A stretch of DNA of 64,000 nucleotides from Naegleria gruberi (lineage: Eukaryota): the NCBI GenBank assembly GCA_000004985.1, contig GG738857.1; one strand, 5' to 3'. The notes beneath the pieces are model-generated. The model ran no database searches, was not told the origin of the DNA, and saw nothing but the letters and a program-made list of their open reading frames with translations. Positions within the stretch are counted from its first letter, which is position 1; each line of letters opens with the position of its first letter. The translations under genes were made by a program, and so were the position numbers. Of the stretch, positions 49 to 61,474 are shown in pieces.

Positions 49-3000
49 ATGACAACTCCAGCCTTGGAGACATTATCAGTGTTAGAAAACACCGAATCAG
101 CAGAACCCTCACCACAAACCACAGAAACTACCAATGACATCCCAACTCAACCACAAACTATCCCATCAACTGAAACTATTCCTTCCCAATCTTCATCTCT
201 CGAAATGAATAATAATGCACAAGCAGATGAAAATGATGACGATGAAGATGATGATGAATCCACCAGTACAACCACCTCCTCATCCACCACTTTAACTTCC
301 CCAAGAAATGATCCATCACAACCTTCGTTATCCTCATCACACCATTCTAATAATAATATTCAGAAGGCTCTCCCAACTAATACCTATCGTTTGAGTAGGG
401 ACATTAGACAAACCATTACCAATTCAAAGCAACGTAGTCAATCTCTACTCAATAACAACAACATCAATAATACCCAGAGTGGAATTACGAGAGCAAGTGC
501 TTCTTCATCATCCTCTTCTTCGAGTGGCGCCAATTTTTCTGACTCGACAACTACAAAAAATGTAAAACATAGCGCGGAGAATGATTACAAGTATTATGAG
601 AGTGGTAGTAGTGTTGGTGTATCATCATCATCGTTGGAGGATGGAAAGAATGATGATTTGAGGACTCTGATGAGTACTCATATTGTTAATTTGGTTAATG
701 GTGATTCCAATTCTGATGATATTGTGAATCATACTAATAATAATAACAATAATAATGGTGAACAATTGTGTAGGACATTGGAAATTGAAATTGAAAAATC
801 CAAGACTGTCAATAAGTTTTTCATTGAGAATAGAGATGATAGTGCCATCAAGGATTTATTCTCTCAAAATTGTTTGCATTTGTATAATGGAGAGTTTACA
901 GTGTTGAAACATAATGAGAAGGATTATGTTGAGGCTCAACAGGAAAATGTTGCTAACAATGTAAGTTTTCATTCGGAATAGTTGTATCCGATACAGATGA
1001 TGTTTCTTAACTTTCAATTTGTAGACTAAATGTTTAATGTATCACGAACAAGGAAAGGATATTATGGATTTGGCAACAAAGAGGATTACTTTCCACCCAA
1101 ATGATTTTATAGAGGAGTAAGTGTTGTAATATTGAATATTTAAAAACTAAACATAATTGGAAATATAGTCAATTGAATCTATTGACAAAGATTTATAGAT
1201 TCCGATTGGAAGCAGGTGAATTGGAGCCTTATTTCTTATCGCTTGAACTTGTCAATGCTAAAACAAGAGCTAAAATCAGTGAAAGATTTTACTTCCACAT
1301 GACATCTCATCAGCTCATCAATAGTTTTTATGATGAATTGGATGTTAAGAAACAATTACAAAAACAATTGGACCACCAACCAAAAGCATTGTTTTCTCTA
1401 TCACATTTCTTGAAGGGAGAACCTTTGTCTGATGTTTATGCAGTTGTTTTTGTATTTAAAACATTACAAGGAGTTTCTACTGATCAAACACTCAAACAAT
1501 ATCAAGCAGGAAAGAAAAATCATACACTCACAAGGGATACACAATCCGAATGTCTTTCAGGTTCACAAACCTTTGATGATTTCCAAGGACTTAAATATCA
1601 CAAGGAACCTTTCTTATTTTCATTCTGTCCTGTCAAGGAAAGTGGTATTCATGCTATGAGATACTTTTTACCTGTGGAAAGTTTGTTCCAACTCATGAGT
1701 AGCAGTGAATCTGATGTTACAGAAGGAAGTGTTGGAACAAAGAAATTATCACACATTGATGCAGTGTGTGAAATTATCTCACAACAATCAGAGACGTTAC
1801 TTCACTTTTACACACCTCACAATGTTCATGAACGTAGTGAGTTAAAAGAGCAATTAGTTGCAGAAAGTGAACTTGCAAAGAAGAATATCAAAAAGTACAA
1901 GCCAGTTCCTGGTTATTTAGTTTTTGAAACTTACAAATTTAATCCAAAGAAATTTGAATCAGATCCAGTGGAAAGAGTTTTACTCTTTGGATCTGAACAA
2001 GAAAAACCAATGTTTACTACCAGTTCAGCAATTTCACTCGAAGAAGTAATAATCAAAATCCAACATAGAAATGGTAGTATTTTGAATCCTAGAGATCTAA
2101 CTCAAGAAAAGGAACTGAAAAAATGTTTGGCAGCCTCTGATTCTATCAGTTATCAAAATTACAAGATAGAAGAACTCCATGAAAAGCTTCCAAAATTCCC
2201 TCATTTTGATTTCTCACACTTGTTATATATTTCCCCACTAACTCTAAATTTGGAGAAATTCAAGATTGATTCACTTTCGTGTTTGGATGCTGATCCAGCT
2301 CTTTTGGAAACACTTGCAATTAAGAAATTCAAACCAAAGAACGTTCTGGTAAAAGTAGAATATAGAGAATCTATCAAAAAGACAGCCCAAAGAATTATAT
2401 CTCCACATGGACAATCACTTGTATCTGAAATTTACTGTAATGTATTATTCGATGAAGAAAAGATGGTTCGATTCCTAGATGAAATCAAAATTGCCTTACC
2501 ACTTCCAATGGAAAAAGAAAACCACTTGGTCATTTCATTCTATCATTTAGTTATCGAAAAACAAGGTCCAAAGAGAAAAAAGACCCTAGATAGCAATGGA
2601 AATGTGCCAAAGATTTGTTTTGGTTATGCCGTTCTCCCTATCAAGGACATTGTTGAAAATCACTGCTCCAAGATGACAGATTTTACATACACTTACACAT
2701 TACCTATCTATCAAAAATTGAGTGGAGATTATCTTTCAGATTCTAAACGTTTGAGTATTAGTGCATCTGCTAATATTGGATCAATGTCTCAAAAACGATA
2801 CGATATTAAGAAGGTTTCCTTTGTTTGTAACACGAGAATTGTTTCAACTATTTACCCTAACGAAAAACTTCTCCTTCAATTCTTTGCCGATTGTGCTCCT
2901 TTTATTAGTATCACAAAGGAAGGTTCTGACTCGAAAGAATTGTCTAGAGCGGTTAAAGACTGTAGAAAATCAATTGAGAATCTTACAAAAGTTCCATTCT

Positions 3001-3886
3001 CTAAATTAGTAAGCCATTTCACACTCATCATGGATATGTTGCTTAGTGTAATGTGTCGTATTCCAGATGTGATTCACACTTTTGTGAGCGAATCTGAACA
3101 ACAAGAACAGTCTGCACTCTTTGGTGATACTTCACATGGTTTGAGTTTGACTGGTTCTAGTGGCGAAGATGAAATGCTTAAATCAATTAGTGCCAGATTT
3201 GGACTTGCAGAAAGTACTTCTCCTGTTTCTAACTCTGCTTCACTGGAACACAAATCTCTCAGCTCAATCCTTGCAGCTAAAAGAAAATCTGTTACTAACA
3301 GTGTTACCAATAGCACCTCCTCATCTTCACAACATCTCAGTTTTACTACTCCTAATAATCCTTCTTCTGCTACTACTCCTTCAAGTCCAGGCTCTTCTGG
3401 TGAATTGAAAAAGAGATTCTCCCTCAAGAATATTCTCAAGAGAAAATCAAAGGAAGTTGAACCAACTCCAACTGCTTTGCACACTGCACCAACAAATGCA
3501 AAGAAAATTGCTCAACCAGGTGAAGAGGGTTTCAATTTAATAGAATATCTTAAAGCTCAACAAGAACAACAAGAACAAACTCAACACACACCAGAAGTTG
3601 CAATCCCTTCAAAGGAAGACAAATCAAAGAATGAAAAAATCAAGAGAAGAATGTCTCTCACTGATAGATTATTCAATAGAAACAAATCTCTTGATCAATC
3701 CAGTGAAGAAAGTAATACATCTCCAGTTGCTGAGGCAAACAATTCATCTTCAGGTGCTGTAAGAAAGAGTATTACCTTCACTGCTTCTAATACAGACTCT
3801 CGTGGAAGTCAATCTGATTTTGGTGATTTCCTTGGTGTTACAGCAACTTTGTTCGAATTACAGAAAACCGTTTTCCAAGTTATTGT
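49..3886 (+). CDS. Large Ser/Thr/Asn-rich hypothetical protein. Three exons: 49-960, 1025-1116, and 1169 to at least 3886. The 3' end is lost in an assembly gap.
   Basis: ORF-track entries 49..981 and 1173..4001 join in frame through two introns. Intron 1 runs 961-1024 (GTAAGT to tttgtag) and intron 2 runs 1117-1168 (GTAAGT to atatag). Exon 1 ends in phase 0; exon 2 carries 2 nt, completed by t1169. The protein has low-complexity N/S/T tracts. A segment HLVISFYHLVIEKQG...FGYAVLPIKD faintly resembles a C2/DHR-1-like region, but I could not assign a domain. Confidence 0.45.
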
Positions 3887-3986
3887 NNNNNNNNNNNNNN
3901 NNNNNNNNNNNNNNNNNNNNNNNNNNNNNNNNNNNNNNNNNNNNNNNNNNNNNNNNNNNNNNNNNNNNNNNNNNNNNNNNNNNNNN
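3887..3986. other. Assembly gap (100 N)
   Basis: Run of n characters. The flanking ORF reads through it as X residues, so the continuity of the flanking genes is unknown. Confidence 0.95.
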
Positions 3987-4041
3987 TCTTTGAATCTTTA
4001 AATTCTGTTGGTTCTTCCTTGATTTAATTTTGAAATCTTAC

Positions 4042-6765
4042 ATGTTAACACAACGTGAAAAGTGCGAAAAGAGAAGTGCTATGAATGATGTGGAATTCAA
4101 CTTGCTTTCGGAAAGAGAAAGAGAGGCACTCACCACTGATCATGGGTACAAGTTCACACTTTTGTTGAAAGAATTGATTGGAGCTTTAGCAGAAAAGGCT
4201 GTTTTCTATAAGGACGATTTTGCTAACTTCTTTGTTTCATCTCAAATTAACAATCAACTTGCCTTCTTCTTTAGAGATTTACTTGGCTGTGGTGATTTAA
4301 TCAAACATGAATATGTTTTCGATTTGATGGAAAGTTACTTTAGAGAATTCACAGTCAAAAAGCCAGTCACCATTAACACTATCAAGCTTTGTATTGATTT
4401 CTTGCAAATTTTATCTGACCATCCACAATTTGCTGAATTGAACTTGTCAATCTTCCATCCAAAGGAATATATTTATCATGAATCAATTCTTTGTCCACCA
4501 GTCAAACTTTTGGTCAATCTTATTAGAGATTGTATCACCAAGTTTAAGAGTGAAATTGATGTACACAACAGTGCTATCAAAGTTCTCAGATATATTCTCA
4601 CTAAGGAGGAATATACTCATCTTTCAATTCCAAATGTAACAACAACAAGGGCTGAATTAATTGCTAGAATCTATTTCCCATATATTGTCATGTTGTTGAA
4701 GAATTTCCATGCCTTGGAATCTCTTCCTGAAATGACCACAAGACAGCACTTGAAATGCTCAGTTTGGATTTTATCTAATGTAAACTCTCAATTCTTTGAT
4801 GATTGGATCAAAACATCTGATCAAAATGTTGTTGATAACTTGGTCAAATTATTAGCTTTCTATTTGGACCATTTCGAAATCAAAGGAAGAGTTAAATACG
4901 AAACAAGTTCATTCAAAGCATTCCAACTCGTCTTTTCTAGACTTAGTAACCACCTCAAAGAAAGGGTTGTATCTATTATTGAACAGTTTAGCGATGACAT
5001 CAAGGTATTTGAACCTTCACACAGAGACTTGTCATCATTCATCAAGATGGACATTAGAGATTGTGAAGGTGCCAAATATCAAACAGATAACGGTATGAGC
5101 GAGAAAGATTTCATTGGCTACATTATGTTTACAATTGCAAAAATTATGCAAATTGTATCAATAGGAAGGCAAAAGAAAGTTAGTTTGGATATGGAAGAAA
5201 CTAGTATTGATTTAATTTCTTATTATGTCGAGCTTTTTACTCCAGTTTTCAGAGCTAATCCAAACAGTACTTACTGGAAATGGCTGTATGGAGCTCTTCT
5301 CTCTGGAAAGGAATTCTCTATGGCTACTGTAGAAGGTATCCTTGCAGGTGCAAGCGATACACTCTATGAAAAATTGATCAACATTTTGGAAAGAGTTTAC
5401 GAAAAAGATATCATCAATGTTGACAATCTATCAAAACTATTTGATGATTCAAGCGTCGCTGAAAGCGAAATTATTCTTGATGAGGAAAACAAAATCAAGG
5501 CATCCACTTTGAACAGACTTGTTGCACGTGTTTGTGATCAGAATAATAGTGGTGATTCCAAATTTACTGACACATTCTTAGTGACCTATCGTTCTTTCTG
5601 TACTCCTGAAACTCTACTCACATTAATGATGAGCTACTTTGAATATCATGTATTGCCTAAAGGTGATCAAGAAATTAATAGTAACAATAAGACTCTTGTT
5701 CTGAGAATGTTGAACACTATAAGATTATGGGTTCAAGATCACAGTTATGACTTTAATAATTGTCTCAATGCTTCAATGATGCACTTTATCTATCAACAAG
5801 TTGGTAGATTGTGTGTTATTGAAAAATCATCAAACTCTGGTTATATTAGTATTGCTAATAAGATTAAGGAAAGAATAGAAGCCAATCTTGTTTGTAATGG
5901 CGAATCTCGTGAAAAGTTGGAAAAGATGTTCAGTCGTGAAAGACCTCAACCAAAATATCCATCCAAATGGAGTGAAGCATACGAAAAGAAAGCATTCAGT
6001 ATCAAGCAATGGGATCCTCAAGAAATTGCCAAGCAAATCACTCTCTTGGACAGTGTAATTTTCACAGCCATTGAACCAAAAGAATTCTTTGGTCTTGGTT
6101 GGACAAAGAAGGACAAGATGATCAGAGCTCCAAACATTGTTCACCTCACTGATCAATTCAATAATTTATCAATGTTCGTTACCTCGGATATTGCCTGTGA
6201 GGAAAATCTTAAGAAGAGAGTAAGAAAAGTCAAACAATGGATCAATGTTGCTTGGGAATGCAAAAATCTTAATAATTTGAATGGTTGTAACTCTATTGTT
6301 TCTGCTTTCAACAATGCAGGTATTCACAGACTTAAAAAGACCTGGGATGCCATTCCAAAGAAAGACATTGAGAATGACAGATTAAGACAATTGAATGAGC
6401 TTGTCTCAATGACCAGTTCTTACAAGAATATGAGAGAACATATGTCCAGATCAGGTGAAGGTATTCCATACATTGGTATCTATTTAACTGATATGGTTTT
6501 CATTGAAGATGGTAATAAGGATTACATTACAAAGGAAAATTCCGATTTACAATTAATCAACTTTGCCAAGAGACGTAAAATTGCAGAAGTTATTCAAAGA
6601 ATCAAAACTCAACAACAAACTCTTTATGATTTCATTCCAATTCCATTTTTACAAAGAACTTTTGATTTCTCATCATTGACCGATGAAGAGAAGACTAAGA
6701 CATTATTATCCGATGACGTTATTTGGAACAAATCACTTGTAATTGAACCAAGAGAAAACAAATAA
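4042..6765 (+). CDS. Ras guanine-nucleotide exchange factor with a RasGEF N-terminal (REM) domain and a CDC25-homology domain
   Basis: Continuous ORF. The REM-like motif is FTDTFLVTYRSFCTPETLLTLMMSYF. The CDC25-domain signatures include WDPQEIAKQITLLDSVIF, RLKKTWDAIPKK and GIPYIGIYLTDMVFIEDGN, which matches the GNPD-loop region of RasGEFs. The first in-frame ATG is at 4042, with the nearest upstream in-frame stop at 3991. Confidence 0.8.
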   Translation: MLTQREKCEKRSAMNDVEFNLLSEREREALTTDHGYKFTLLLKELIGALAEKAVFYKDDFANFFVSSQINNQLAFFFRDLLGCGDLIKHEYVFDLMESYFREFTVKKPVTINTIKLCIDFLQILSDHPQFAELNLSIFHPKEYIYHESILCPPVKLLVNLIRDCITKFKSEIDVHNSAIKVLRYILTKEEYTHLSIPNVTTTRAELIARIYFPYIVMLLKNFHALESLPEMTTRQHLKCSVWILSNVNSQFFDDWIKTSDQNVVDNLVKLLAFYLDHFEIKGRVKYETSSFKAFQLVFSRLSNHLKERVVSIIEQFSDDIKVFEPSHRDLSSFIKMDIRDCEGAKYQTDNGMSEKDFIGYIMFTIAKIMQIVSIGRQKKVSLDMEETSIDLISYYVELFTPVFRANPNSTYWKWLYGALLSGKEFSMATVEGILAGASDTLYEKLINILERVYEKDIINVDNLSKLFDDSSVAESEIILDEENKIKASTLNRLVARVCDQNNSGDSKFTDTFLVTYRSFCTPETLLTLMMSYFEYHVLPKGDQEINSNNKTLVLRMLNTIRLWVQDHSYDFNNCLNASMMHFIYQQVGRLCVIEKSSNSGYISIANKIKERIEANLVCNGESREKLEKMFSRERPQPKYPSKWSEAYEKKAFSIKQWDPQEIAKQITLLDSVIFTAIEPKEFFGLGWTKKDKMIRAPNIVHLTDQFNNLSMFVTSDIACEENLKKRVRKVKQWINVAWECKNLNNLNGCNSIVSAFNNAGIHRLKKTWDAIPKKDIENDRLRQLNELVSMTSSYKNMREHMSRSGEGIPYIGIYLTDMVFIEDGNKDYITKENSDLQLINFAKRRKIAEVIQRIKTQQQTLYDFIPIPFLQRTFDFSSLTDEEKTKTLLSDDVIWNKSLVIEPRENK

Positions 6766-45978: not shown

Positions 45979-46051
45979 CGCCCCACGTGGGGCTCGAACC
46001 CACGACCGTTGGATTAAAAGTCCAACGCTCTACCGACTGAGCTAGCGGGGC
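45979..46051 (-). tRNA. tRNA-Lys: tRNA-Lys (anticodon UUU)
   Basis: The minus-strand sequence GCCCCGCTAGCTCAGTCGGTAGAGCGTTGGACTTTTAATCCAACGGTCGTGGGTTCGAGCCCCACGTGGGGCG folds as a cloverleaf. The 7-bp acceptor stem has one G-U pair. The D-loop is AGCTCAGTCGGTAGAGC. The anticodon loop cTTTTaa gives anticodon TTT. The T-arm is GGTTCGAGCCC. CCA is not encoded. Confidence 0.85.
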
Positions 46052-53856: not shown

Positions 53857-54840
53857 ATGAAAAGTAAAAGGCAACAAGAATATTCTCTGAAGGGAATTCG
53901 AATAATTGTAGTTTTGATGATGGTGATGATAGGTTTCTTCGGAATAATATCTTGTAAGGATGATTTTCGGGAAACAAGTAATGAATTGGCTTTGGAGTTC
54001 TTTCCTCTTGATAAATTGATTATGAAGAGTATTGTATTGGATGAATACAATAATGAACTTGTTTATAATATGGTCAATTTGACGAATAATGATTCCATGA
54101 CAAATGGAACAGATAGTAACAATTCGAGTGGGATTGAAGATAATCTTTTTTGGGTTATTGTCAAGTCAATTTATTTCAATGCATTTGGAAGTGGAGTGTT
54201 TGCTGGTTTGGTGACAATTGCTATCACTGTCATTATTGAAAAGTTTGGACCTCAGGTTGGAGGTGTTATTGGTACGTTGTAAACCAATTAGTTCAATTTT
54301 TTTAAATCAACTTTTAAATCAATAATAGGCACCTTACCAAGTACAATTATTCCAGCAACAATTGGGTTCTCAATTGAGGCAGATAAGAATTACGGAACAG
54401 ATCCAGAATTGAGGAAACACATGCTCATCCAGCAATTCTTTGTGATACCTTTGGCTGTTTTCTGCAATTGTCTCTTTTTGGTTATTTGGAAATATTCGCC
54501 ACACATTATTGATAGGATTAAACTTTTAATTGATAGGAAGAGAGGGAAGAGCAAGCAAATCAATATTGTTGCTTCTCATGAGGCAAGCGTTCAAGAAATG
54601 AATGAGATTCCATTTGAAGAAAACCATGATATACACGATGCAGATGAGGGACATCATCGTCCTTCTGTTGAGCTCCTCACTGCTGCACAAGGCACTGATG
54701 AACATAGTACCACTGAGCTCCAAACAGAAAGCCAACCAAGCAGAAAGTACCTTGTTGGAAAAATGTTTATTGTAATGACATTGTCATTGGTGGTATGGTT
54801 TACATTGGCTATTGTGATTGTGACAGTTACTAAGGTCGAA
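53857..54840 (+). CDS. Polytopic membrane protein (two exons: 53857-54271 and 54329 to at least 54840), truncated at the 3' end by an assembly gap
   Basis: ATG at 53857. Intron 54272-54328 (57 nt, GTACGT to ataatag) joins ...GPQVGGVIG to GTLPSTIIPATIGFSIEADK..., so ORF-track entries 53857..54282 and 54409.. belong to the same gene. The protein has multiple hydrophobic helices and runs into the N gap at 54842. Confidence 0.45.
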
Positions 54841-54841
54841 A

Positions 54842-55128
54842 NNNNNNNNNNNNNNNNNNNNNNNNNNNNNNNNNNNNNNNNNNNNNNNNNNNNNNNNNNN
54901 NNNNNNNNNNNNNNNNNNNNNNNNNNNNNNNNNNNNNNNNNNNNNNNNNNNNNNNNNNNNNNNNNNNNNNNNNNNNNNNNNNNNNNNNNNNNNNNNNNNN
55001 NNNNNNNNNNNNNNNNNNNNNNNNNNNNNNNNNNNNNNNNNNNNNNNNNNNNNNNNNNNNNNNNNNNNNNNNNNNNNNNNNNNNNNNNNNNNNNNNNNNN
55101 NNNNNNNNNNNNNNNNNNNNNNNNNNNN
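54842..55128. other. Assembly gap (287 N)
   Basis: Run of n characters. It separates the membrane-protein gene from the PPR gene. The ORF-track entry 54409..58980 (1523 aa with X residues) is an artefact of reading through this gap. Confidence 0.95.
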
Positions 55129-58100
55129 AACATGATCAAACAGTCAAACATTTCCAGCGTAACACTTGATGGCATACTAATCAAGTTTTATACAAAGTGT
55201 GGACACGAGGAAATGGCAATAGAGCTCTATAGAGATATCATTTCACAAAATAAGCCAATAGATGTCATAACTTTTACTTGTGTCATTCAAGCATTTGCTC
55301 AACAAAAACAAATAGAACAAGCAATAGGCGCTTTGGAGGAAATGAAAAAGAGAAATATTAACCCAAATAGTGTAACATTTACTATATTAATTAGGTTGTG
55401 TGCAGAAAATCAATATTACAAAGAAGGTGTGAAATTACATGAAATGATCAAAATATCGAAAATTTCGAGTTTAGAATTGAGTAACTCATTAATGAATTTT
55501 TACACAAAATGTGGTAAACCTGATGTTGCCCTTCAACTATTTGAACAACTCAAAGTTGGCAAAATGAAATTGAATGTAGCTTCTTGGTCATGTGCAATTC
55601 AGGCCCTTGGAGAGAAAAAAGACATCAGAGGAGCAATTGGTTTATTGGAAGAAATGCAAGCCAATAATATCAAAGCAGATTCTATTCTATTTACCATATT
55701 ATTATCTCTATGTGCAGACAATCAACTTTATGAAGAAGGAGTGAAATTACATGAAATTATCAACGTATTGAAAATTTCTAGTTTAGGATTGTCGAACACA
55801 TTAATGAATTTTTATAACAAATGTGATCAAACCAGTATATCACTTGAAATATTTGAAGAACTTAAAAAAGAAAACAAGACAAATGTTGTATCATGGAATT
55901 GTGCAATTCAAGCTCTTGCTAAACAGAAACATTTCAAAAAAGCTATTGATTTATTGGAAGAAATGGAATCAAACAAAGTCAAACCAGACACTATTACATT
56001 CACAATACTTATTAGTTTCTGCGCGGAAAATCAGCTCTATGAGGAAGGTGTAAAATTGCATGAGTTCATACAAAGGTTAAATGTATCGAGTTTGGAATTG
56101 AGCAATACATTGATGACCTTTTACACCAAATGTCACAAACCTGAAGTTTCACTCGCGATGTTTGAACATCTTACAAAAGAAAACAAAGCTGATAACGTAT
56201 CTTGGAATTGTGTAATTCAAGCACTTATCCAAAAAGAAGATATAACAAAGGTAACCGAGCTACTGGATAGTATGGCAAAAACCAATATTATGGTTGATGT
56301 TTCCATGTTAGTAGCTGTAGTGAATAAGTGCACAGAACGAAAATTGTTAAAGGAGGGAGTTTTGTTTCACAAGCAGATGAGAATACACAAAATTGAAAAT
56401 GTAGAATTGAGTAATTCCTTAATGAATTTTTACACTAAGTCTGGCCAACCTAATTTATCACTTGAAATATTTGAAGAACTTAAAAAAGAAAACAAGACGA
56501 ATGTTATATCATGGAATTGTGCAATCCAAGCTCTTGGACAAAAAAAAGACATCAACAAAGCTATTGATTTGTTAAAGGATATGCAAATCAATTCTGTTAA
56601 ACCAGACTTCGTAACATTTACTACATTAGTTAGTTTATGCGCAAAGAATCAGCTCTATAGCGAAGGAGTAACATTACATACAATTATCAAAAGCCTTGGT
56701 ATGGAAAATATAGAATTGTCAAACACATTAATGAATTTTTACACAAAATGTGGTAAACCTGATGTTGCCCTTCAACTATTTGAACAGCTCAAAATTGGCA
56801 AAATGAAATTGAATGTAGCTTCTTGGTCATGTGCAATTCAGGCCCTTGGAGAGAAAAAAGATATCAGAGGAGCAATTGGTTTATTGGAGGAAATGCAAGC
56901 CAATAATATCAAAGCAGATTCTATTTTATTTACCATATTATTATCTCTATGTGCAGACAATCAACTTTATGAAGAAGGAGTGAAATTACATGAAATAATC
57001 AAAGTATTGAAAATTTCTAGTTTGGAATTGTCACACACATTAATGAATTTTTACACAAAATGTGGCCACACTAACGTTGCGCTTCAGCTATTTGAGGACT
57101 TGAAAAAAGAAAATAATACCAATGCTATTTCTTGGAACAGTGCTATTCAAGCCTTAGTGCTAGCTAAAGACACCCAGAAAGCAATAGACCTTCTTGCAGA
57201 AATGCAATTGCTCAATGTTAAACCAGATACTATTACGTTCACTATATTAATTGGTCTGTGTGCAGAAAATCAATATTACAAAGAAGGAGTGAAATTACAT
57301 GAAATGATCAAAGTATTGAACATTTCAAGTTTAGAATTGAGTAATTCATTAATGAATTTTTACACAAAATGTGGTCAACCTGATGTTGCACTTCAACTAT
57401 TTGAACAGCTTAAAATTGACAAGATGAAAATGAATGTAGTTTCTTGGTCATGTGCAATTCAGGCCCTTGGAGAGAAAAAAGACATCAGAGGAGCAATTGG
57501 TTTATTGGAAGAAATGCAAGCCAATAATATCAAAGCAGATACTATTTTATTTACTATTTTACTAACTTTATGTGCAGACAATCAACTTTATGAAGAAGGA
57601 GTGAAATTACATGAAATAATCAAAGTATTGAAAATTTCAAGTTTGGAATTGTCAAATACATTAATGAATTTTTACACAAAATGTGGACAAACCAGTATAT
57701 CACTTGAAATATTTGAAGAACTTAAAAAAGAAAACAAGACAAATGTTGTATCATGGAATAGTGCAATCCAAGCTCTGCGATCTAGGAAAGATATTACAAG
57801 AGCCTTTGAATTGCTAGAGGAAATGAAAAAACTCAACATTGAACCAGATGAAATAACATATGTTAGCCTTCTTACTCTATGTGCAGACAGTGTTGCCATT
57901 AAGCAGGGAGAGGAGGTGGTGCAGCAGTTCAAAACAAAACATATAGCAAAAAGTGTCTTTTGGATTGGTGCAACTATAAGCTTTCATGCAAAAGTTGGAA
58001 GATTGGAAAGAGCAGAATCAGTATTCAATGAATATTTATCTAACAACCCACCATTTGATCCAATCTTGACAAGTGTTATGATAGATGCTTATGCCAAACA

Positions 58101-58980
58101 TGGAAAAGGAAAAGAGGCTGTTTATTTGTATCAACAAATAATTGATAGAAACCAACTCCCAAGTGCAGAGGCTGTTACAAGTGTTTTAACCGCTTGTAGT
58201 CATGCAGGGTTAGTTGATGAGGCAAGAAGAATTTACAAGTCAATTGAAAATACACAAGTATGTACACCAAGTCACAAAGCTTGTATGGTAGATGTTTTGG
58301 CCAGAAGTGGATATTTGGAGGAGGCTGAACAATTTATTGGTTCATCAAGAGATGTAGTTAGTTGGGTAACACTACTGGGAGCATGCAGAATTCATACGAA
58401 TGTTGAAATAGCTGAAAGAACGTTTGATATTCTCTTAGAAATAGACAATGAACAAGCTTCCCACTATGTACAAATGTCACATATTTACAATCAAATGGGA
58501 CAAATTGACAAGGCAAACGAAGTAAGGGAATTAATGAAACGTAATAATGCAACGAAAATTCCTGGAATTACCACTATTGAGGTTGATGGTGAGACCCATA
58601 ATTTTGTGTCAGATGATTCATACCACCCTAGAATGCAAGAAATTAACCAAGAGTTAGAAAAGCTGAATAAGGAAATGTTAGATGCTGGTTATGCTCCAGA
58701 TACTAGATGGGTAACAAGGTTAGATGTTGATCCAAATGATGAAAAAAAGAAGAAAGAATTATTATGTAGACACTCCGAAAGAATAGCAATGGCATTTGCT
58801 TTTATTTCATTACCAAAAGATGAACCAATTGTGATGAGAAAGAATTTGAGAGTGTGTGGCGATTGCCATACAGCTACCAAATTCATTTCCAAAATAAGAA
58901 AAAGGGAAATAATTGTGAGAGATGCCAGTAGGCATCATCATTTTAAAGATGGCAAATGCTCATGTGGTGACTTCTTCTAA
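55129..58980 (+). CDS. PLS-class pentatricopeptide-repeat protein with C-terminal E1/E2 motifs and a DYW-type cytidine-deaminase domain (plant-type organellar RNA-editing factor). The 5' end is missing in the gap.
   Basis: Nine tandem units of about 104 aa, each three helical-hairpin (PLS-like) motifs, are followed by HAKVGRLERAESVF, MIDAYAKHGKGKEA, VTSVLTACSHAGLVDEA and HKACMVDVLARSGYLEEA. Then come the E motifs (WVTLLGACRIHTNVEIAE...HYVQMSHIYNQ) and PGITTIEVDGETHNFVSDDSYHP. The DYW domain reads LLCRHSERIAMAFAFISLPKDEPIVMRKNLRVCGDCHTATKFISKIRKREIIVRDASRHHHFKDGKCSCGDFF. The zinc-binding deaminase motifs HSE and CGDCH are both present. The terminal tripeptide is DFF rather than DYW. Confidence 0.85.
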   Translation, partial: NMIKQSNISSVTLDGILIKFYTKCGHEEMAIELYRDIISQNKPIDVITFTCVIQAFAQQKQIEQAIGALEEMKKRNINPNSVTFTILIRLCAENQYYKEGVKLHEMIKISKISSLELSNSLMNFYTKCGKPDVALQLFEQLKVGKMKLNVASWSCAIQALGEKKDIRGAIGLLEEMQANNIKADSILFTILLSLCADNQLYEEGVKLHEIINVLKISSLGLSNTLMNFYNKCDQTSISLEIFEELKKENKTNVVSWNCAIQALAKQKHFKKAIDLLEEMESNKVKPDTITFTILISFCAENQLYEEGVKLHEFIQRLNVSSLELSNTLMTFYTKCHKPEVSLAMFEHLTKENKADNVSWNCVIQALIQKEDITKVTELLDSMAKTNIMVDVSMLVAVVNKCTERKLLKEGVLFHKQMRIHKIENVELSNSLMNFYTKSGQPNLSLEIFEELKKENKTNVISWNCAIQALGQKKDINKAIDLLKDMQINSVKPDFVTFTTLVSLCAKNQLYSEGVTLHTIIKSLGMENIELSNTLMNFYTKCGKPDVALQLFEQLKIGKMKLNVASWSCAIQALGEKKDIRGAIGLLEEMQANNIKADSILFTILLSLCADNQLYEEGVKLHEIIKVLKISSLELSHTLMNFYTKCGHTNVALQLFEDLKKENNTNAISWNSAIQALVLAKDTQKAIDLLAEMQLLNVKPDTITFTILIGLCAENQYYKEGVKLHEMIKVLNISSLELSNSLMNFYTKCGQPDVALQLFEQLKIDKMKMNVVSWSCAIQALGEKKDIRGAIGLLEEMQANNIKADTILFTILLTLCADNQLYEEGVKLHEIIKVLKISSLELSNTLMNFYTKCGQTSISLEIFEELKKENKTNVVSWNSAIQALRSRKDITRAFELLEEMKKLNIEPDEITYVSLLTLCADSVAIKQGEEVVQQFKTKHIAKSVFWIGATISFHAKVGRLERAESVFNEYLSNNPPFDPILTSVMIDAYAKHGKGKEAVYLYQQIIDRNQLPSAEAVTSVLTACSHAGLVDEARRIYKSIENTQVCTPSHKACMVDVLARSGYLEEAEQFIGSSRDVVSWVTLLGACRIHTNVEIAERTFDILLEIDNEQASHYVQMSHIYNQMGQIDKANEVRELMKRNNATKIPGITTIEVDGETHNFVSDDSYHPRMQEINQELEKLNKEMLDAGYAPDTRWVTRLDVDPNDEKKKKELLCRHSERIAMAFAFISLPKDEPIVMRKNLRVCGDCHTATKFISKIRKREIIVRDASRHHHFKDGKCSCGDFF
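55440..57700 (+). repeat. Near-identical tandem repeats of about 312-330 nt (PLS triplet units) inside the PPR gene
   Basis: Units at about 55440-55790, 56690-57040 and 57300-57660 share roughly 95-98% nucleotide identity. An example is aaatgtggtaaacctgatgttgcccttcaactatttgaaca...gaaattatcaa. A second repeat class with ccagtatatcacttgaaatatttgaagaacttaaaaaagaaaacaagac occurs at about 55830, 56455 and 57690. Confidence 0.7.
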
Positions 58981-59852: not shown

Positions 59853-61474
59853 AATGTCCCAACATCAAGTGTATGATGAGTTGAAGAAGGTAAGGACATG
59901 ATGAATAAGCTTATCTCTAAAAAAGCAAATTGCAACACATACGGAAGAAGAGTAGAGATAATCAAAAGTGGGAAGAAAATCGTAAAATATTGAGAAATTC
60001 GTTCATTCCGATCGAGTTTAGAAATGATCGTGATTATGTAAAGAGGAATGTCGAAATGTACAGTAGAACCTTTGAATGGGCTTCTGAGGAATTGAGATCC
60101 GATAAGAAATTAATCATGGAAGCATTGGTAAAGATGAGTTCCTTTCCGGCGTTGGAATTCATCTCTGATTCATTGAAGAAGGATCAGGAATTTATTAGTA
60201 AGATGATTGAACAAAATCCAATCTTGATGGATGGAGCCAGTGAATATAACATTAATTTTATTAAGGAGGCAATTAGAAAGGGGTTGAAGAAATTTCCTCC
60301 AAAGAAAGTAGCAGTTGTGGATAGGAAAGAAATGTTGGAAAAGTTCAAAAAGAAGGAGATTGAATTTTGGGATTTACCTGAAAAGTTTAAAAAGGATGAT
60401 GAATTTTGCTTGATTGCAATTCAGAGGAGTTTGAATATAATGCAGGAAATTGGGCCAAATCTGAGTAGAGAAATGATTATTAAGGCAGTGAGGGAAGCAT
60501 CGTTCCTTGCATTCTATCATGCTGATGAAAATTTAAAGAAGGATAAGTTGCTTATTGGAAGATTGATTAAAATAGATCCTCATGTATTATTATTTGCTGA
60601 TAAGGAGGTAAGAAAAGATAGAACAATTATATCAGATGCTGTTAAATTGGATGTTGAAACATTGAATTATGCCACAAATGATATTTTGAAAGATGTCCAA
60701 TTTGTACAGAAAATCAAGTCAACTGGAGGTTCAAAAGACTCTAAAAATCACAAAGAAGTCATTTTGTTAGCACTCTCTTATGCTCCAGAAATTGCTGCCA
60801 TCATACCCCTTTCTTTGAAGAAGAATAAGGAATTCATGCTTCAAGCAATCAATGCTGGAGGTTCAGAGGTGCTACATCATCTTCACGAATCATTGAAGGA
60901 TGATAAGGAATTCATACTAAAAGCAATCAAATCAATTGAATATTGTTCAATGTTGGCAGAATGCCTCCCAGAAAGTTTACTCTCAGATAAGGAAATTGTT
61001 TTGGCAGTTGTAGAGAAGGATCCAGGAAGTTTCAATCACTTTAAAAACTTGTCAGACATTCCATTCACTAGAGAGATGATTCTAAAAGTTGTGAAAGAAA
61101 GTGCAAGTGCATACAAGGGAATTCCAGAAGAATTCAAAAAAGATAAGGAAATTGCTTTAGAAACAATGAAGGGAGGCCTAGCCTACCTTATCAGTAAAGT
61201 ACCTGATGAATTAAAGAAAGATAGAGAATTTATTTTGAAATGTTCACAAGAGAATCCTGAAGTGGTTAGATATTGCATTGATGATTTCAGATTCGATTCA
61301 GAATTTTGTTTGCAAGCTATACGATTGAATGGATGTGTTCTTGGTAAGGTCCTGATAGACAAGACAAGAGAAATGGAAATTGAGGCTGTAAAACAGAATG
61401 GGTTCTTTCTTCCATCTAGTGAAATTCTGGGCGAATTGCTAAAGATTAGAATGGAACATTTCAACAGTATTTAA
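59853..61474 (+). CDS. DUF4116-type repeat protein (paralogue of 27641-29146). Two exons: 59853-59888 and 59948-61474.
   Basis: The candidate first exon MSQHQVYDELKK has a GTAAGG donor at 59889. A 59-nt intron reaches the acceptor aag at 59946-59947, in phase 0 with the long ORF. The DUF4116-like repeats include KDKLLIGRLIKIDPHVLLFADKEVRKDRTIISDAVKLDVETLNYA and KEFMLQAINAGGSEVLHHLHESLKDDKEFILKAIKS. Confidence 0.55.

What the first reader, a model, noticed from the sequence alone, without database searches (positions are those of the whole stretch)
55440..57700. PPR array built from near-identical tandem PLS triplets, next to an assembly gap
Three 104-aa PLS units are about 95-98% identical at the nucleotide level (starting at 55507, 56747 and 57370 in protein terms). 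Other units share long identical stretches. This implies very recent unit duplication or ongoing gene conversion. PPR proteins normally diverge motif by motif because each motif reads one nucleotide, so identical triplets would read a repeated RNA motif, or else the array is evolutionarily young. The 287-N gap immediately upstream (54842-55128) probably reflects assembly collapse of the same repeats. The true protein is likely longer.
Basis: seen in the sequence. Interest (0 to 1): 0.55.

Follow-up and report, generated by a model that had tools for sequence, protein, structure and literature searches.

The report
Naegleria PPR editing-factor gene, repeated units
This is an already catalogued Naegleria gruberi gene for a plant-type RNA-editing protein (PPR array plus DYW deaminase); three of its nine 104-residue repeat units really are 92-97% identical because they were copied within the gene fairly recently, which is a modest curiosity and not a new kind of system.

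Summary
Window 55129-58980 (+) is one open frame of 1283 codons running from the edge of the 287-N gap to a stop. It encodes 31 PPR motifs, nine of them S-P-L triplet units of 309/312 nt, followed by E1, E2 and an intact DYW deaminase. Units U2, U6 and U8 are 92.6-96.5% identical in DNA; the other 33 unit pairs are 52-73%. Synonymous divergence among the three is low (dS 0.12-0.26, dN/dS about 0.14), so the likeness reflects shared ancestry followed by purifying selection. It is not protein constraint or stacked haplotypes. Sharply bounded in-register tracts between non-adjacent units point to intragenic gene conversion or unequal exchange. All three units carry the same specificity residues (NN-SD-TS, read as "Y-G-n"). 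The window is Naegleria gruberi. The C-terminal 799 aa equal XP_002679496.1, a truncated gene model, and the species' DYW-PPR family was published in 2010. A paralogous locus and an environmental relative have even more uniform units, and a few lycophyte PPRs show similar duplications. The protein is longer than annotated and continues into the gap. Nothing shows the gap hides more of the same repeats.

The parts
54842..55128 (.). Assembly gap of 287 N. Coding sequence of two different genes on the + strand abuts it on both sides.
55129..58980 (+). Open frame of 1283 codons plus stop, 5'-truncated by the gap: a PLS-class PPR-E1-E2-DYW protein. The other five frames carry 54-111 stops over the same span. 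The chance of such an open frame at this base composition is about 1e-43.
56581..58980 (+). Extent of the public gene model XP_002679496.1 / NAEGRDRAFT_32040 (799 aa, 100% identical). It starts at an internal Met inside U5 and omits 484 in-frame PPR codons.
55177..55488 (+). Unit U1 (312 nt), the divergent first unit. Its 3' third (from 55381) belongs to the 536-nt block shared with U7.
55489..55800 (+). Unit U2 (312 nt, 104 aa), near-identical copy 1.
55801..56109 (+). Unit U3 (309 nt). Its 5' third is shared with U5 and U9.
56110..56418 (+). Unit U4 (309 nt), the most divergent unit: 54-58% nt identity to all others.
56419..56727 (+). Unit U5 (309 nt). Its 5' third is shared with U3 and U9.
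56728..57039 (+). Unit U6 (312 nt, 104 aa), near-identical copy 2. The tract 56726-57053 matches 55487-55814 at 96.6%.
57040..57348 (+). Unit U7 (309 nt). Its 3' third resembles that of U1.
57349..57660 (+). Unit U8 (312 nt, 104 aa), near-identical copy 3. The tract 57347-57686 matches 56726-57065 at 94.7%.
57661..57969 (+). Unit U9 (309 nt). Its 5' third is shared with U3 and U5; the rest is divergent.
57955..58353 (+). Terminal S, P2, L2 and S2 motifs: 57955-58059, 58060-58164, 58165-58266 and 58267-58353.
   Evidence: manual segmentation against the plant motif register.
58354..58557 (+). E1 (58354-58455) and E2 (58456-58557) motifs.
58558..58977 (+). DYW cytidine-deaminase domain. It has a PG-box-like PGITTIEVDGETHNF, HSE, CGDCH, and HHFKDGKCSCGDFF at the C-terminus.
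53857..54841 (+). Unrelated upstream gene, not part of the PPR gene: a predicted membrane protein. Exon 1 is 53857-54273, a GT..AG intron lies at about 54274-54329, and exon 2 runs open into the gap. It has no Pfam match.

Best explanation
The region is the 3' 3.85 kb of a nuclear Naegleria gruberi gene for a plant-type PLS-class PPR protein. It has at least 31 PPR motifs, then E1 and E2 motifs and a catalytically intact-looking DYW cytidine deaminase. By analogy with land-plant editing factors, the array would bind single-stranded mitochondrial RNA one motif per nucleotide, just 5' of a target C, and the DYW domain would deaminate that C to U (inferred, not shown here). The array was built and is remodelled in place by in-register recombination between its 309/312-nt S-P-L units. 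One unit type now sits at positions 2, 6 and 8, and shorter tracts are shared among U3/U5/U9 and U1/U7. The copies are not adjacent and the identity tracts end sharply while their flanks differ, so non-reciprocal transfer (intragenic gene conversion, or unequal sister-chromatid exchange) explains the pattern better than simple neighbour duplication. After copying, the units accumulated mostly synonymous changes, so the protein is under purifying selection. The three copies keep identical specificity residues, which gives the predicted target a recurring Y-G-n at positions -31..-29, -19..-17 and -13..-11.
For: Identity of the gene: 100% match over 799 aa to XP_002679496.1 [Naegleria gruberi]. 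Pfam gives PPR_2 3e-140, E_motif 7.9e-15 and DYW_deaminase 2e-36. The E2-DYW region matches the synthetic PPR-DYW structure 9kfx at E 1.5e-63 and the OTP86 DYW domain 7o4e at 8.9e-33, with HSE, CGDCH and CSCGD aligned. The frame is open for 1283 codons where the other frames have 54-111 stops. Copying: U2/U6/U8 are 92.6-96.5% identical in DNA against 52-73% for the other pairs. Their dS is 0.12-0.26 with dN/dS about 0.14, while the other pairs have dS of 0.75 or saturated. Mosaic structure: ungapped in-register tracts of 536 nt (92.7%, offset 6 units), 328 nt (96.6%, offset 4), 340 nt (94.7%, offset 2), 81 nt (96.3%) and 116 nt (90.5%). A Sawyer-type permutation test finds runs of matching variable sites in U3/U5, U3/U9 and U5/U9 reached by 0 of 5000 permutations, and U1/U7 at p=0.0006. 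Units cluster by gene: mean protein identity is 58% within this gene, 89% within the paralogous locus, 86% within the environmental relative, and only 40-44% between genes. Specificity code. Context from the literature: N. gruberi has 10-11 DYW-type PPR proteins and two verified mitochondrial C-to-U sites (PMC4202320; PMC5421314).
Against: No sequencing reads, long-read assembly or second N. gruberi assembly could be consulted, so copy number and order rest on a single draft scaffold. The N-terminus lies in the gap, so organelle targeting cannot be assessed. No expression or editing data were available, and the mitochondrial genome could not be retrieved to test the predicted target. The literature notes that DYW proteins greatly outnumber known editing sites in this species, so a non-editing role is possible. 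Gene conversion and multi-step unequal crossing-over cannot be formally separated from a single sequence. The permutation test ignores rate differences among sites.
Confidence: 0.85

Rival explanations
1. Assembly artefact: the near-identical units are alleles or haplotypes, or misplaced reads, stacked in tandem in a draft Sanger assembly, and do not represent real copies.
For: The gene sits next to an assembly gap. The paralogous locus is also split into two abutting truncated models, so these repeats evidently troubled assembly or annotation.
Against: If blocks of 4, 2 or 6 units were stacked haplotypes, the neighbouring units would match equally well. They do not: U3/U7 is 68.6%, U4/U8 56.6%, U5/U9 64.7% and U7/U9 58.6%. 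The copies differ at 11-23 sites, all in frame and mostly synonymous, and each sits between unique junctions. The same architecture appears in an independent environmental contig.
Confidence: 0.05
2. The three units are alike because selection holds their protein sequence constant (functional constraint or convergence), not because they were copied recently.
For: All three keep the same specificity residues.
Against: Synonymous sites are nearly identical too: dS is 0.12-0.26 against 0.75 or more (or saturated) for the other pairs. Exact shared runs of 70-100 nt occur.
Confidence: 0.02
3. Plain stepwise tandem duplication by unequal crossing-over, followed by divergence, with no gene conversion.
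For: All offsets are whole numbers of units and in frame. Unit number clearly grew within each gene. Unequal crossing-over is documented for RFL-type PPR genes (PMC5075784).
Against: The similar copies are separated by 1, 3 and 5 dissimilar units. Identity tracts stop abruptly at or inside unit borders and have different ages (90.5-96.6%). Multi-unit duplication predicts similar neighbours, which is not seen.
Confidence: 0.15
4. The protein is not a site-specific editing factor. Its long, low-complexity array binds U-rich mitochondrial RNA for another purpose such as stabilisation, processing or cleavage, or it is functionally redundant.
For: Two editing sites are known against 10-11 DYW proteins in N. 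gruberi, and the authors themselves suggest other roles. The predicted code is of low diversity: S motifs are mostly NN, and P motifs are ND or SD.
Against: The DYW catalytic signatures are fully conserved. Purifying selection acts on the array.
Confidence: 0.3

Closest known systems
Land-plant PLS-E-DYW organellar C-to-U RNA editing factors, e.g. Arabidopsis OTP86 (DYW structure 7o4e) and the synthetic PPR-DYW 9kfx
   Same: The same P-L-S triplet architecture and the same terminal P2-L2-S2-E1-E2-DYW order. The HxE and CxDCH zinc-site signatures and the C-terminal CSCGD motif are present. The match is E 1.5e-63 to 9kfx over the last 196 aa.
   Different: The host is a heterolobosean amoeba. 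Motif lengths are 35/34/34-35, whereas plants have about 35/35-36/31-32 (plant figures from my own knowledge). The array is very long, at least 31 motifs. Units within the array reach 97% identity, whereas 56 other PPR proteins had a median of 37.5% and a maximum of 64% over any 100 aa. The C-terminus ends in DFF, not DYW, and the PG box reads PGITTIE.
N. gruberi paralogous locus NAEGRDRAFT_45423/45424 (XP_002682649.1 plus XP_002682650.1)
   Same: Same species and same unit design (104 aa, '..INFYTKCG..TFTILLSACA..EEGVKIHE'). It is 40-42% identical to this protein and has a DYW end. Its units are 83-96% identical to each other.
   Different: Its units are more uniform than those here and form their own cluster, only 29-51% identical to the units of this gene. 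XP_002682649.1 retains an N-terminal region of about 215 aa, which this gene lacks because of the gap.
Willaertia magna KAL9657062.1 (808 aa), a DYW-type PPR
   Same: The best-scoring named relative from another species: 40% identity, E 2.1e-166, with the same 'PDTRWVTR ... CGDCH ... KCSCGD' C-terminus.
   Different: Its PLS units are diverged as in plants, with a maximum of 32% self-identity over 100 aa. The homogeneous arrays were therefore not seen in this relative.
Restorer-of-fertility-like (RFL) P-class PPR genes of plants
   Same: [quoted passage not shown]
   Different: RFL genes are P-class and have no deaminase. Exchange there is mainly between clustered paralogous genes, whereas here it is between units inside one gene.
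Lycophyte PLS-DYW proteins with duplicated triplets (Selaginella moellendorffii EFJ36621.1; Diphasiastrum complanatum KAJ7517631.1 and KAJ7568880.1)
   Same: PLS triplets repeated at 84-100% protein identity within one protein.
   Different: These look like single adjacent or two-unit duplications in very large PPR families. The 100% cases could be artefacts of the gene model or assembly, and I did not examine them at the DNA level.

Membership tests
PLS-class PPR-E-DYW RNA editing factor family | Tandem PPR motifs arranged as repeating P-L-S triplets | tested here: met
   Pfam gives PPR_2 3e-140 (14 stretches) and PPR 1.9e-113. Manual segmentation finds nine S-P-L units plus a terminal S-P2-L2-S2, with plant-like anchors: W at P position 4, C at L position 11, and F/Y-Y at S positions 10-11.
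PLS-class PPR-E-DYW RNA editing factor family | E1/E2 (E, E+) motifs between the PPR array and the DYW domain | tested here: met
   PF20431 E_motif scores 7.9e-15 (55.3 bits, cut-off 27.3). PF20430 Eplus_motif scores 20.4 bits, below its cut-off of 24. The region aligns end to end with the E2-DYW part of 9kfx.
PLS-class PPR-E-DYW RNA editing factor family | DYW deaminase domain with the HxE and CxxCH zinc-binding catalytic signature | tested here: met
   PF14432 scores 2e-36 over positions 1-93 of 93. HSE, CGDCH and HHFKDGKCSCGD align with 7o4e and 9kfx. The terminal tripeptide is DFF, not DYW.
PLS-class PPR-E-DYW RNA editing factor family | PG box (PGxSWIEVxGxxHxF, as quoted in PMC4202320) | tested here: met
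   The window has PGITTIEVDGETHNF: 9 of the 11 fixed positions match, with SW replaced by TT.
PLS-class PPR-E-DYW RNA editing factor family | Targeting to mitochondria or plastids | not testable with these tools
   The N-terminus lies in the 287-N gap.
PLS-class PPR-E-DYW RNA editing factor family | Site-specific C-to-U editing of an organellar transcript | not testable with these tools
   No N. gruberi mitochondrial sequence or transcript data could be reached. Only a code-based target prediction was made.
Published set of N. gruberi DYW-type PPR proteins (Knoop and Ruedinger 2010) | Encoded in the N. gruberi nuclear genome with a C-terminal E/DYW domain | tested here: met
   100% identity to XP_002679496.1 / NAEGRDRAFT_32040, and the DYW domain is present.
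Published set of N. gruberi DYW-type PPR proteins (Knoop and Ruedinger 2010) | Listed by accession in that paper | not tested
   The FEBS Letters 2010, RNA 2011 and RNA Biology 2013 papers are not held. No held paper mentions the accessions.
Concerted evolution of tandem repeat units by intragenic conversion or unequal exchange | Units within a gene are more alike than units of paralogous genes | tested here: met
   Mean identity within genes is 58-89%, and between genes 40-44%.
Concerted evolution of tandem repeat units by intragenic conversion or unequal exchange | Sharply bounded, in-register identity tracts between non-adjacent units, clustered beyond chance, with low synonymous divergence | tested here: met
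   Tracts are, the permutation test and dS. The site-order permutation does not model rate heterogeneity among sites.

The most novel reading that the evidence does not exclude
Naegleria PLS arrays may be kept semi-homogeneous by continuing intragenic conversion. The protein would then carry a low-complexity specificity code with a 3-nt period (S = pyrimidine, P = U or G, L = weak). That is the period of codons, so such an array could bind in codon register to U-rich mitochondrial coding RNA with relaxed or multi-site specificity. This mode would differ from the one-site recognition of plant editing factors, and it might explain why DYW proteins far outnumber the known editing sites in this organism.
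Probability: 0.08. Interest if true: 0.6.

Novelty: already known. Interest (0 to 1): 0.27.

Why it matters
This is a routine curation result with a small evolutionary point. First, the public model for this gene (XP_002679496.1, 799 aa) is truncated. At least 484 further in-frame PPR codons lie upstream, and the true start is lost in a gap, so any code-based target prediction made from the database entry would miss at least half of the array. Second, the DYW-type PPR genes of N. gruberi, thought to have been acquired horizontally from plants, expand their RNA-reading arrays by copying whole PLS triplets in place, at two loci and in an environmental relative. This shows how such arrays lengthen, and it gives them a repetitive predicted target. 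Neither point changes what kind of system this is.

Tried and rejected
1. Retrieving the genomic context of XP_002679496.1 and XP_002682650.1 from other assemblies, to resolve the gap and to get the paralog's DNA. Neither is on record.
2. Reading the primary papers (Knoop and Ruedinger 2010; Ruedinger et al. 2011; Schallenberg-Ruedinger et al. 2013). None is held. One PMC id that I guessed was an unrelated paper. I therefore could not check whether the repeat homogeneity has been described, nor obtain the sequences around the cox1 and cox3 editing sites.
3. A possible 'bacterial PLS-PPR'. The closest non-gruberi hit to the unit, P0060, lies on a 47-kb metagenome contig with bacterial neighbours. 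I rejected horizontal transfer into a bacterium. GC content jumps from 31% to about 49% at roughly position 3000, exactly where a bacterial COX1 gene is cut short, so the contig is most simply a chimeric join.
4. Self-BLASTP to measure internal repeat identity returned only the trivial self-hit. I replaced it with an ungapped sliding-window measure.
5. The long ORF 54409-58980 that bridges the gap is an artefact of N being translated as X. The upstream part belongs to a different, spliced membrane-protein gene.
6. A bacterial-type promoter and terminator scan downstream is irrelevant for a eukaryote and was ignored.
7. A search for a second PPR gene or stray units elsewhere in the window found none.
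Full report
What the window is. The window has 33.6% G+C and three N runs, one of which is 54842-55128 (287 nt). The long open frame after that gap, translated from 55129, is 100% identical over its last 799 residues to 'predicted protein [Naegleria gruberi]'. That entry is XP_002679496.1 / EFC46752.1 / NAEGRDRAFT_32040 on a 573-kb scaffold. The sequence is therefore nuclear DNA of the amoeboflagellate N. gruberi.

Checking the observation. Tandem Repeats Finder reports a single array at 55375-57734, with period 309, 7.6 copies and 67% matches. It is the only tandem repeat scoring at least 100 in the whole window. The protein anchor L[MI]xFYxK recurs nine times, 309 or 312 nt apart, and this defines units U1-U9. 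In a codon-aware alignment, U2 (55489-55800), U6 (56728-57039) and U8 (57349-57660) are 96.5%, 94.2% and 92.6% identical in DNA. The other 33 unit pairs average 63.3% (sd 6.3, maximum 73.5). In register they give 95.5/94.2/91.7% over 312 nt, so '95-98%' is slightly too high. The observation itself is correct and far outside the spread of the other pairs. Other units do share long stretches: U3/U5 share 81 nt at 96.3%, U5/U9 share 116 nt at 90.5%, and the U2/U8 likeness extends into U1/U7 and U3/U9 as one ungapped 536-nt block at 92.7%.

Is it real, and what causes the likeness? The frame 55129-58980 is open for 1283 codons, while the other five frames carry 54-111 stops. At this base composition the chance of such an open frame is about 1e-43. 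Among U2/U6/U8 the differences are mostly synonymous: 7 of 11, 10 of 17 and 14 of 23 differing codons. By the Nei-Gojobori method dS is 0.12-0.26, dN is 0.02-0.04 and dN/dS is about 0.14, whereas the other unit pairs have dS of 0.75 or are saturated. The likeness therefore comes from shared ancestry of the DNA and not from constraint on the protein. The copies have since evolved separately under purifying selection, so 'very recent' overstates the case. Tandemly stacked haplotypes can also be excluded. For the observed offsets of 4, 2 and 6 units, the neighbouring units would have to match equally well, but U3/U7, U4/U8, U5/U9 and U7/U9 are only 57-69% identical.

Anatomy of the gene. Pfam finds PPR_2 (3e-140), PPR (1.9e-113), E_motif (7.9e-15), a sub-threshold E+ motif and DYW_deaminase (2e-36, full length). 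I segmented the protein against the plant motif register and found 31 PPR motifs after the gap. These are an S motif, then nine P-L-S rounds of 35, 34 (35 for the last L motif) and 34-35 residues, then P2-L2-S2, followed by E1, E2 and the DYW domain. The last 196 residues align end to end with the synthetic PPR-DYW structure 9kfx (E 1.5e-63) and with the OTP86 DYW domain 7o4e (E 8.9e-33). The HSE, CGDCH and HHFKDGKCSCGD signatures are all conserved. The protein ends in DFF, and its PG box reads PGITTIEVDGETHNF. On sequence criteria this is a complete PLS-E-DYW editing-factor module.

Specificity residues. They do. Each of the three carries S(N5, N-last), P(S5, D-last) and L(T5, S-last). Under the established PPR code (my own knowledge: ND reads U, NN reads a pyrimidine, S/T-D reads G, S/T-N reads A), this reads pyrimidine-G-n. 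What sets the U2 type apart from the other units is mainly P-motif position 5, which is S (reads G) where the others have N (reads U). With S2 placed at -4, the predicted target from -34 to -2 is nAnYGnYUnUUnYUAYGnnUnYGnYUnnnnnnn, and the three copies fall at -31..-29, -19..-17 and -13..-11. The code is of low diversity overall. I could not test it against the mitochondrial genome, which no tool here could retrieve.

Mechanism of copying. All similarity offsets are whole numbers of units and preserve the frame. The similar copies are not neighbours: dissimilar units separate them. The identity tracts end abruptly (328, 340 and 536 nt) and differ in age (90.5-96.6%). A Sawyer-type permutation of variable sites shows runs of matches in U3/U5, U3/U9 and U5/U9 that none of 5000 permutations reached, and U1/U7 gives p=0.0006. 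This mosaic is what intragenic gene conversion or unequal sister-chromatid exchange between misaligned repeats produces. A history of simple adjacent duplications predicts similar neighbours, which are not seen. I therefore favour repeated non-reciprocal exchange, but one sequence cannot fully separate the two processes.

How general is it? Two other N. gruberi models, XP_002682649.1 and XP_002682650.1, have consecutive locus tags on a 1.0-Mb scaffold. One lacks a C-terminus and the other lacks an N-terminus, so they are probably one gene split in two. They consist of 104-aa units that are 83-96% identical to each other. The closest relative of the unit outside N. gruberi lies at the end of a metagenome contig and has at least nine 311-313-nt units that are 82-96.5% identical in DNA. 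That contig is a chimera: GC content jumps from 31% to about 49% at a truncated bacterial COX1. Units cluster by gene, with 58%, 89% and 86% mean identity within genes against 40-44% between genes. Each array was therefore expanded or homogenised on its own. As background, I took the maximum identity of any 100-aa window to another window at least 60 aa away. It is 92-98% for the N. gruberi proteins, against a median of 37.5% and a maximum of 64% in 56 other PPR proteins. Four of them are plant proteins (Selaginella, two from Diphasiastrum, Ancistrocladus) and one is an unnamed JGI metagenome protein. The best-scoring named relative from another species, from Willaertia magna, has ordinary diverged units with a 32% maximum.

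The gap and the gene model. The first residues after the gap, NMIKQSNISS, are the tail of an L motif (compare HEMIKISKISS in the later units), so the array continues into the gap. The best alignment places them at residue 216 of XP_002682649.1. In that protein the first 215 residues are a basic N-terminus and degenerate PPR motifs, not homogeneous units. By that analogy about 650 nt of mostly non-repetitive coding sequence is missing. On the other side, a different gene also runs open into the gap: exon 1 at 53857-54273, a GT..AG intron, then exon 2 from about 54330. It is a predicted membrane protein with no Pfam match. The gap must therefore contain the end of that gene, an intergenic spacer and the 5' part of the PPR gene, which is clearly more than 287 nt. 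Nothing indicates that it contains further U2-like repeats, and nothing excludes it either. The public CDS starts at 56581, at an internal Met in U5, and it omits 484 in-frame PPR codons including U2.

Comparison with what is known. DYW-type PPR proteins of N. gruberi were reported in 2010, 10-11 of them. Two mitochondrial C-to-U sites were verified in 2011, and similar proteins occur in Acrasis, Physarum, rotifers and others. They are usually interpreted as horizontal transfers from early land plants, and the excess of DYW proteins over editing sites has been noted (PMC4202320; PMC5421314). Motif duplication, gene conversion and unequal crossing-over are documented for plant RFL-type PPR genes (PMC5075784). 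I could not read the primary Naegleria papers, and no held paper cites this accession. I therefore cannot say whether the homogeneity of the units has been described before.

Verdict. The feature is real and its description is essentially right. It is an already catalogued member of a published gene family. The near-identical triplets reflect moderately recent intragenic copying under purifying selection, and parallels exist in a paralog, an environmental relative and some plants. The practical results are a corrected, longer gene model and a caution about target prediction. Interest is low to moderate.

Noticed in passing
L001 1-3000 (ENA ERZ25039499 contig_51910, contig end): An environmental, Naegleria-like PLS array of at least nine 311-313-nt units that are 82-96.5% identical in DNA. 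Single-base length differences break the frame. It is joined at about position 2990 to 49%-GC bacterial DNA that begins inside a truncated COX1 gene. This is most simply a chimeric metagenome contig, not a bacterial PPR gene.
   Followed up: partly
window 56581-58980 versus 55129-58980: The public gene model XP_002679496.1 starts at an internal Met and omits 484 upstream in-frame PPR codons.
   Followed up: yes
N. gruberi XP_002682649.1 and XP_002682650.1 (P0003, P0002), not in the window: These adjacent gene models look like the N- and C-terminal halves of one PLS-DYW gene, split by a gap or a model error. The first ends abruptly in a repeat and the second starts in one. Their units are 83-96% identical to each other.
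   Followed up: partly
window 53857-54841 (+): A spliced gene for a predicted multi-pass membrane protein with no Pfam match. Its second exon runs open into the same gap, so the gap truncates two genes.
   Followed up: partly
window 59930-61474 (+): A 514-aa ORF made of about 13 DUF4116 repeats (Pfam 2e-68), immediately downstream of the PPR gene. It is another repeat protein of unknown function.
   Followed up: no
window 1173-6765 (+), gap 3887-3986: A DOCK-C2-containing ORF (1173-3884) and a RasGEF_N/RasGEF ORF (4030-6762) flank a 100-N gap on the same strand. They could be two genes or one mis-split gene.
   Followed up: no
window 45979-46051 (-): A tRNA-Lys(UUU) gene, the only Rfam or ARAGORN hit in the window.
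   Followed up: no
P0112 (Selaginella moellendorffii EFJ36621.1) and P0121 (Ancistrocladus abbreviatus GAB4825152.1): These plant PLS-DYW proteins contain a PLS unit repeated at 100% protein identity over 100 aa. They are either very fresh duplications or artefacts of the gene model or assembly.
   Followed up: no
window 57034-57036 versus 55795-55797: One of the four amino-acid differences between the U2 and U6 tracts is at a specificity position: position 5 of the following S motif is N in U2 and H in U6.
   Followed up: no
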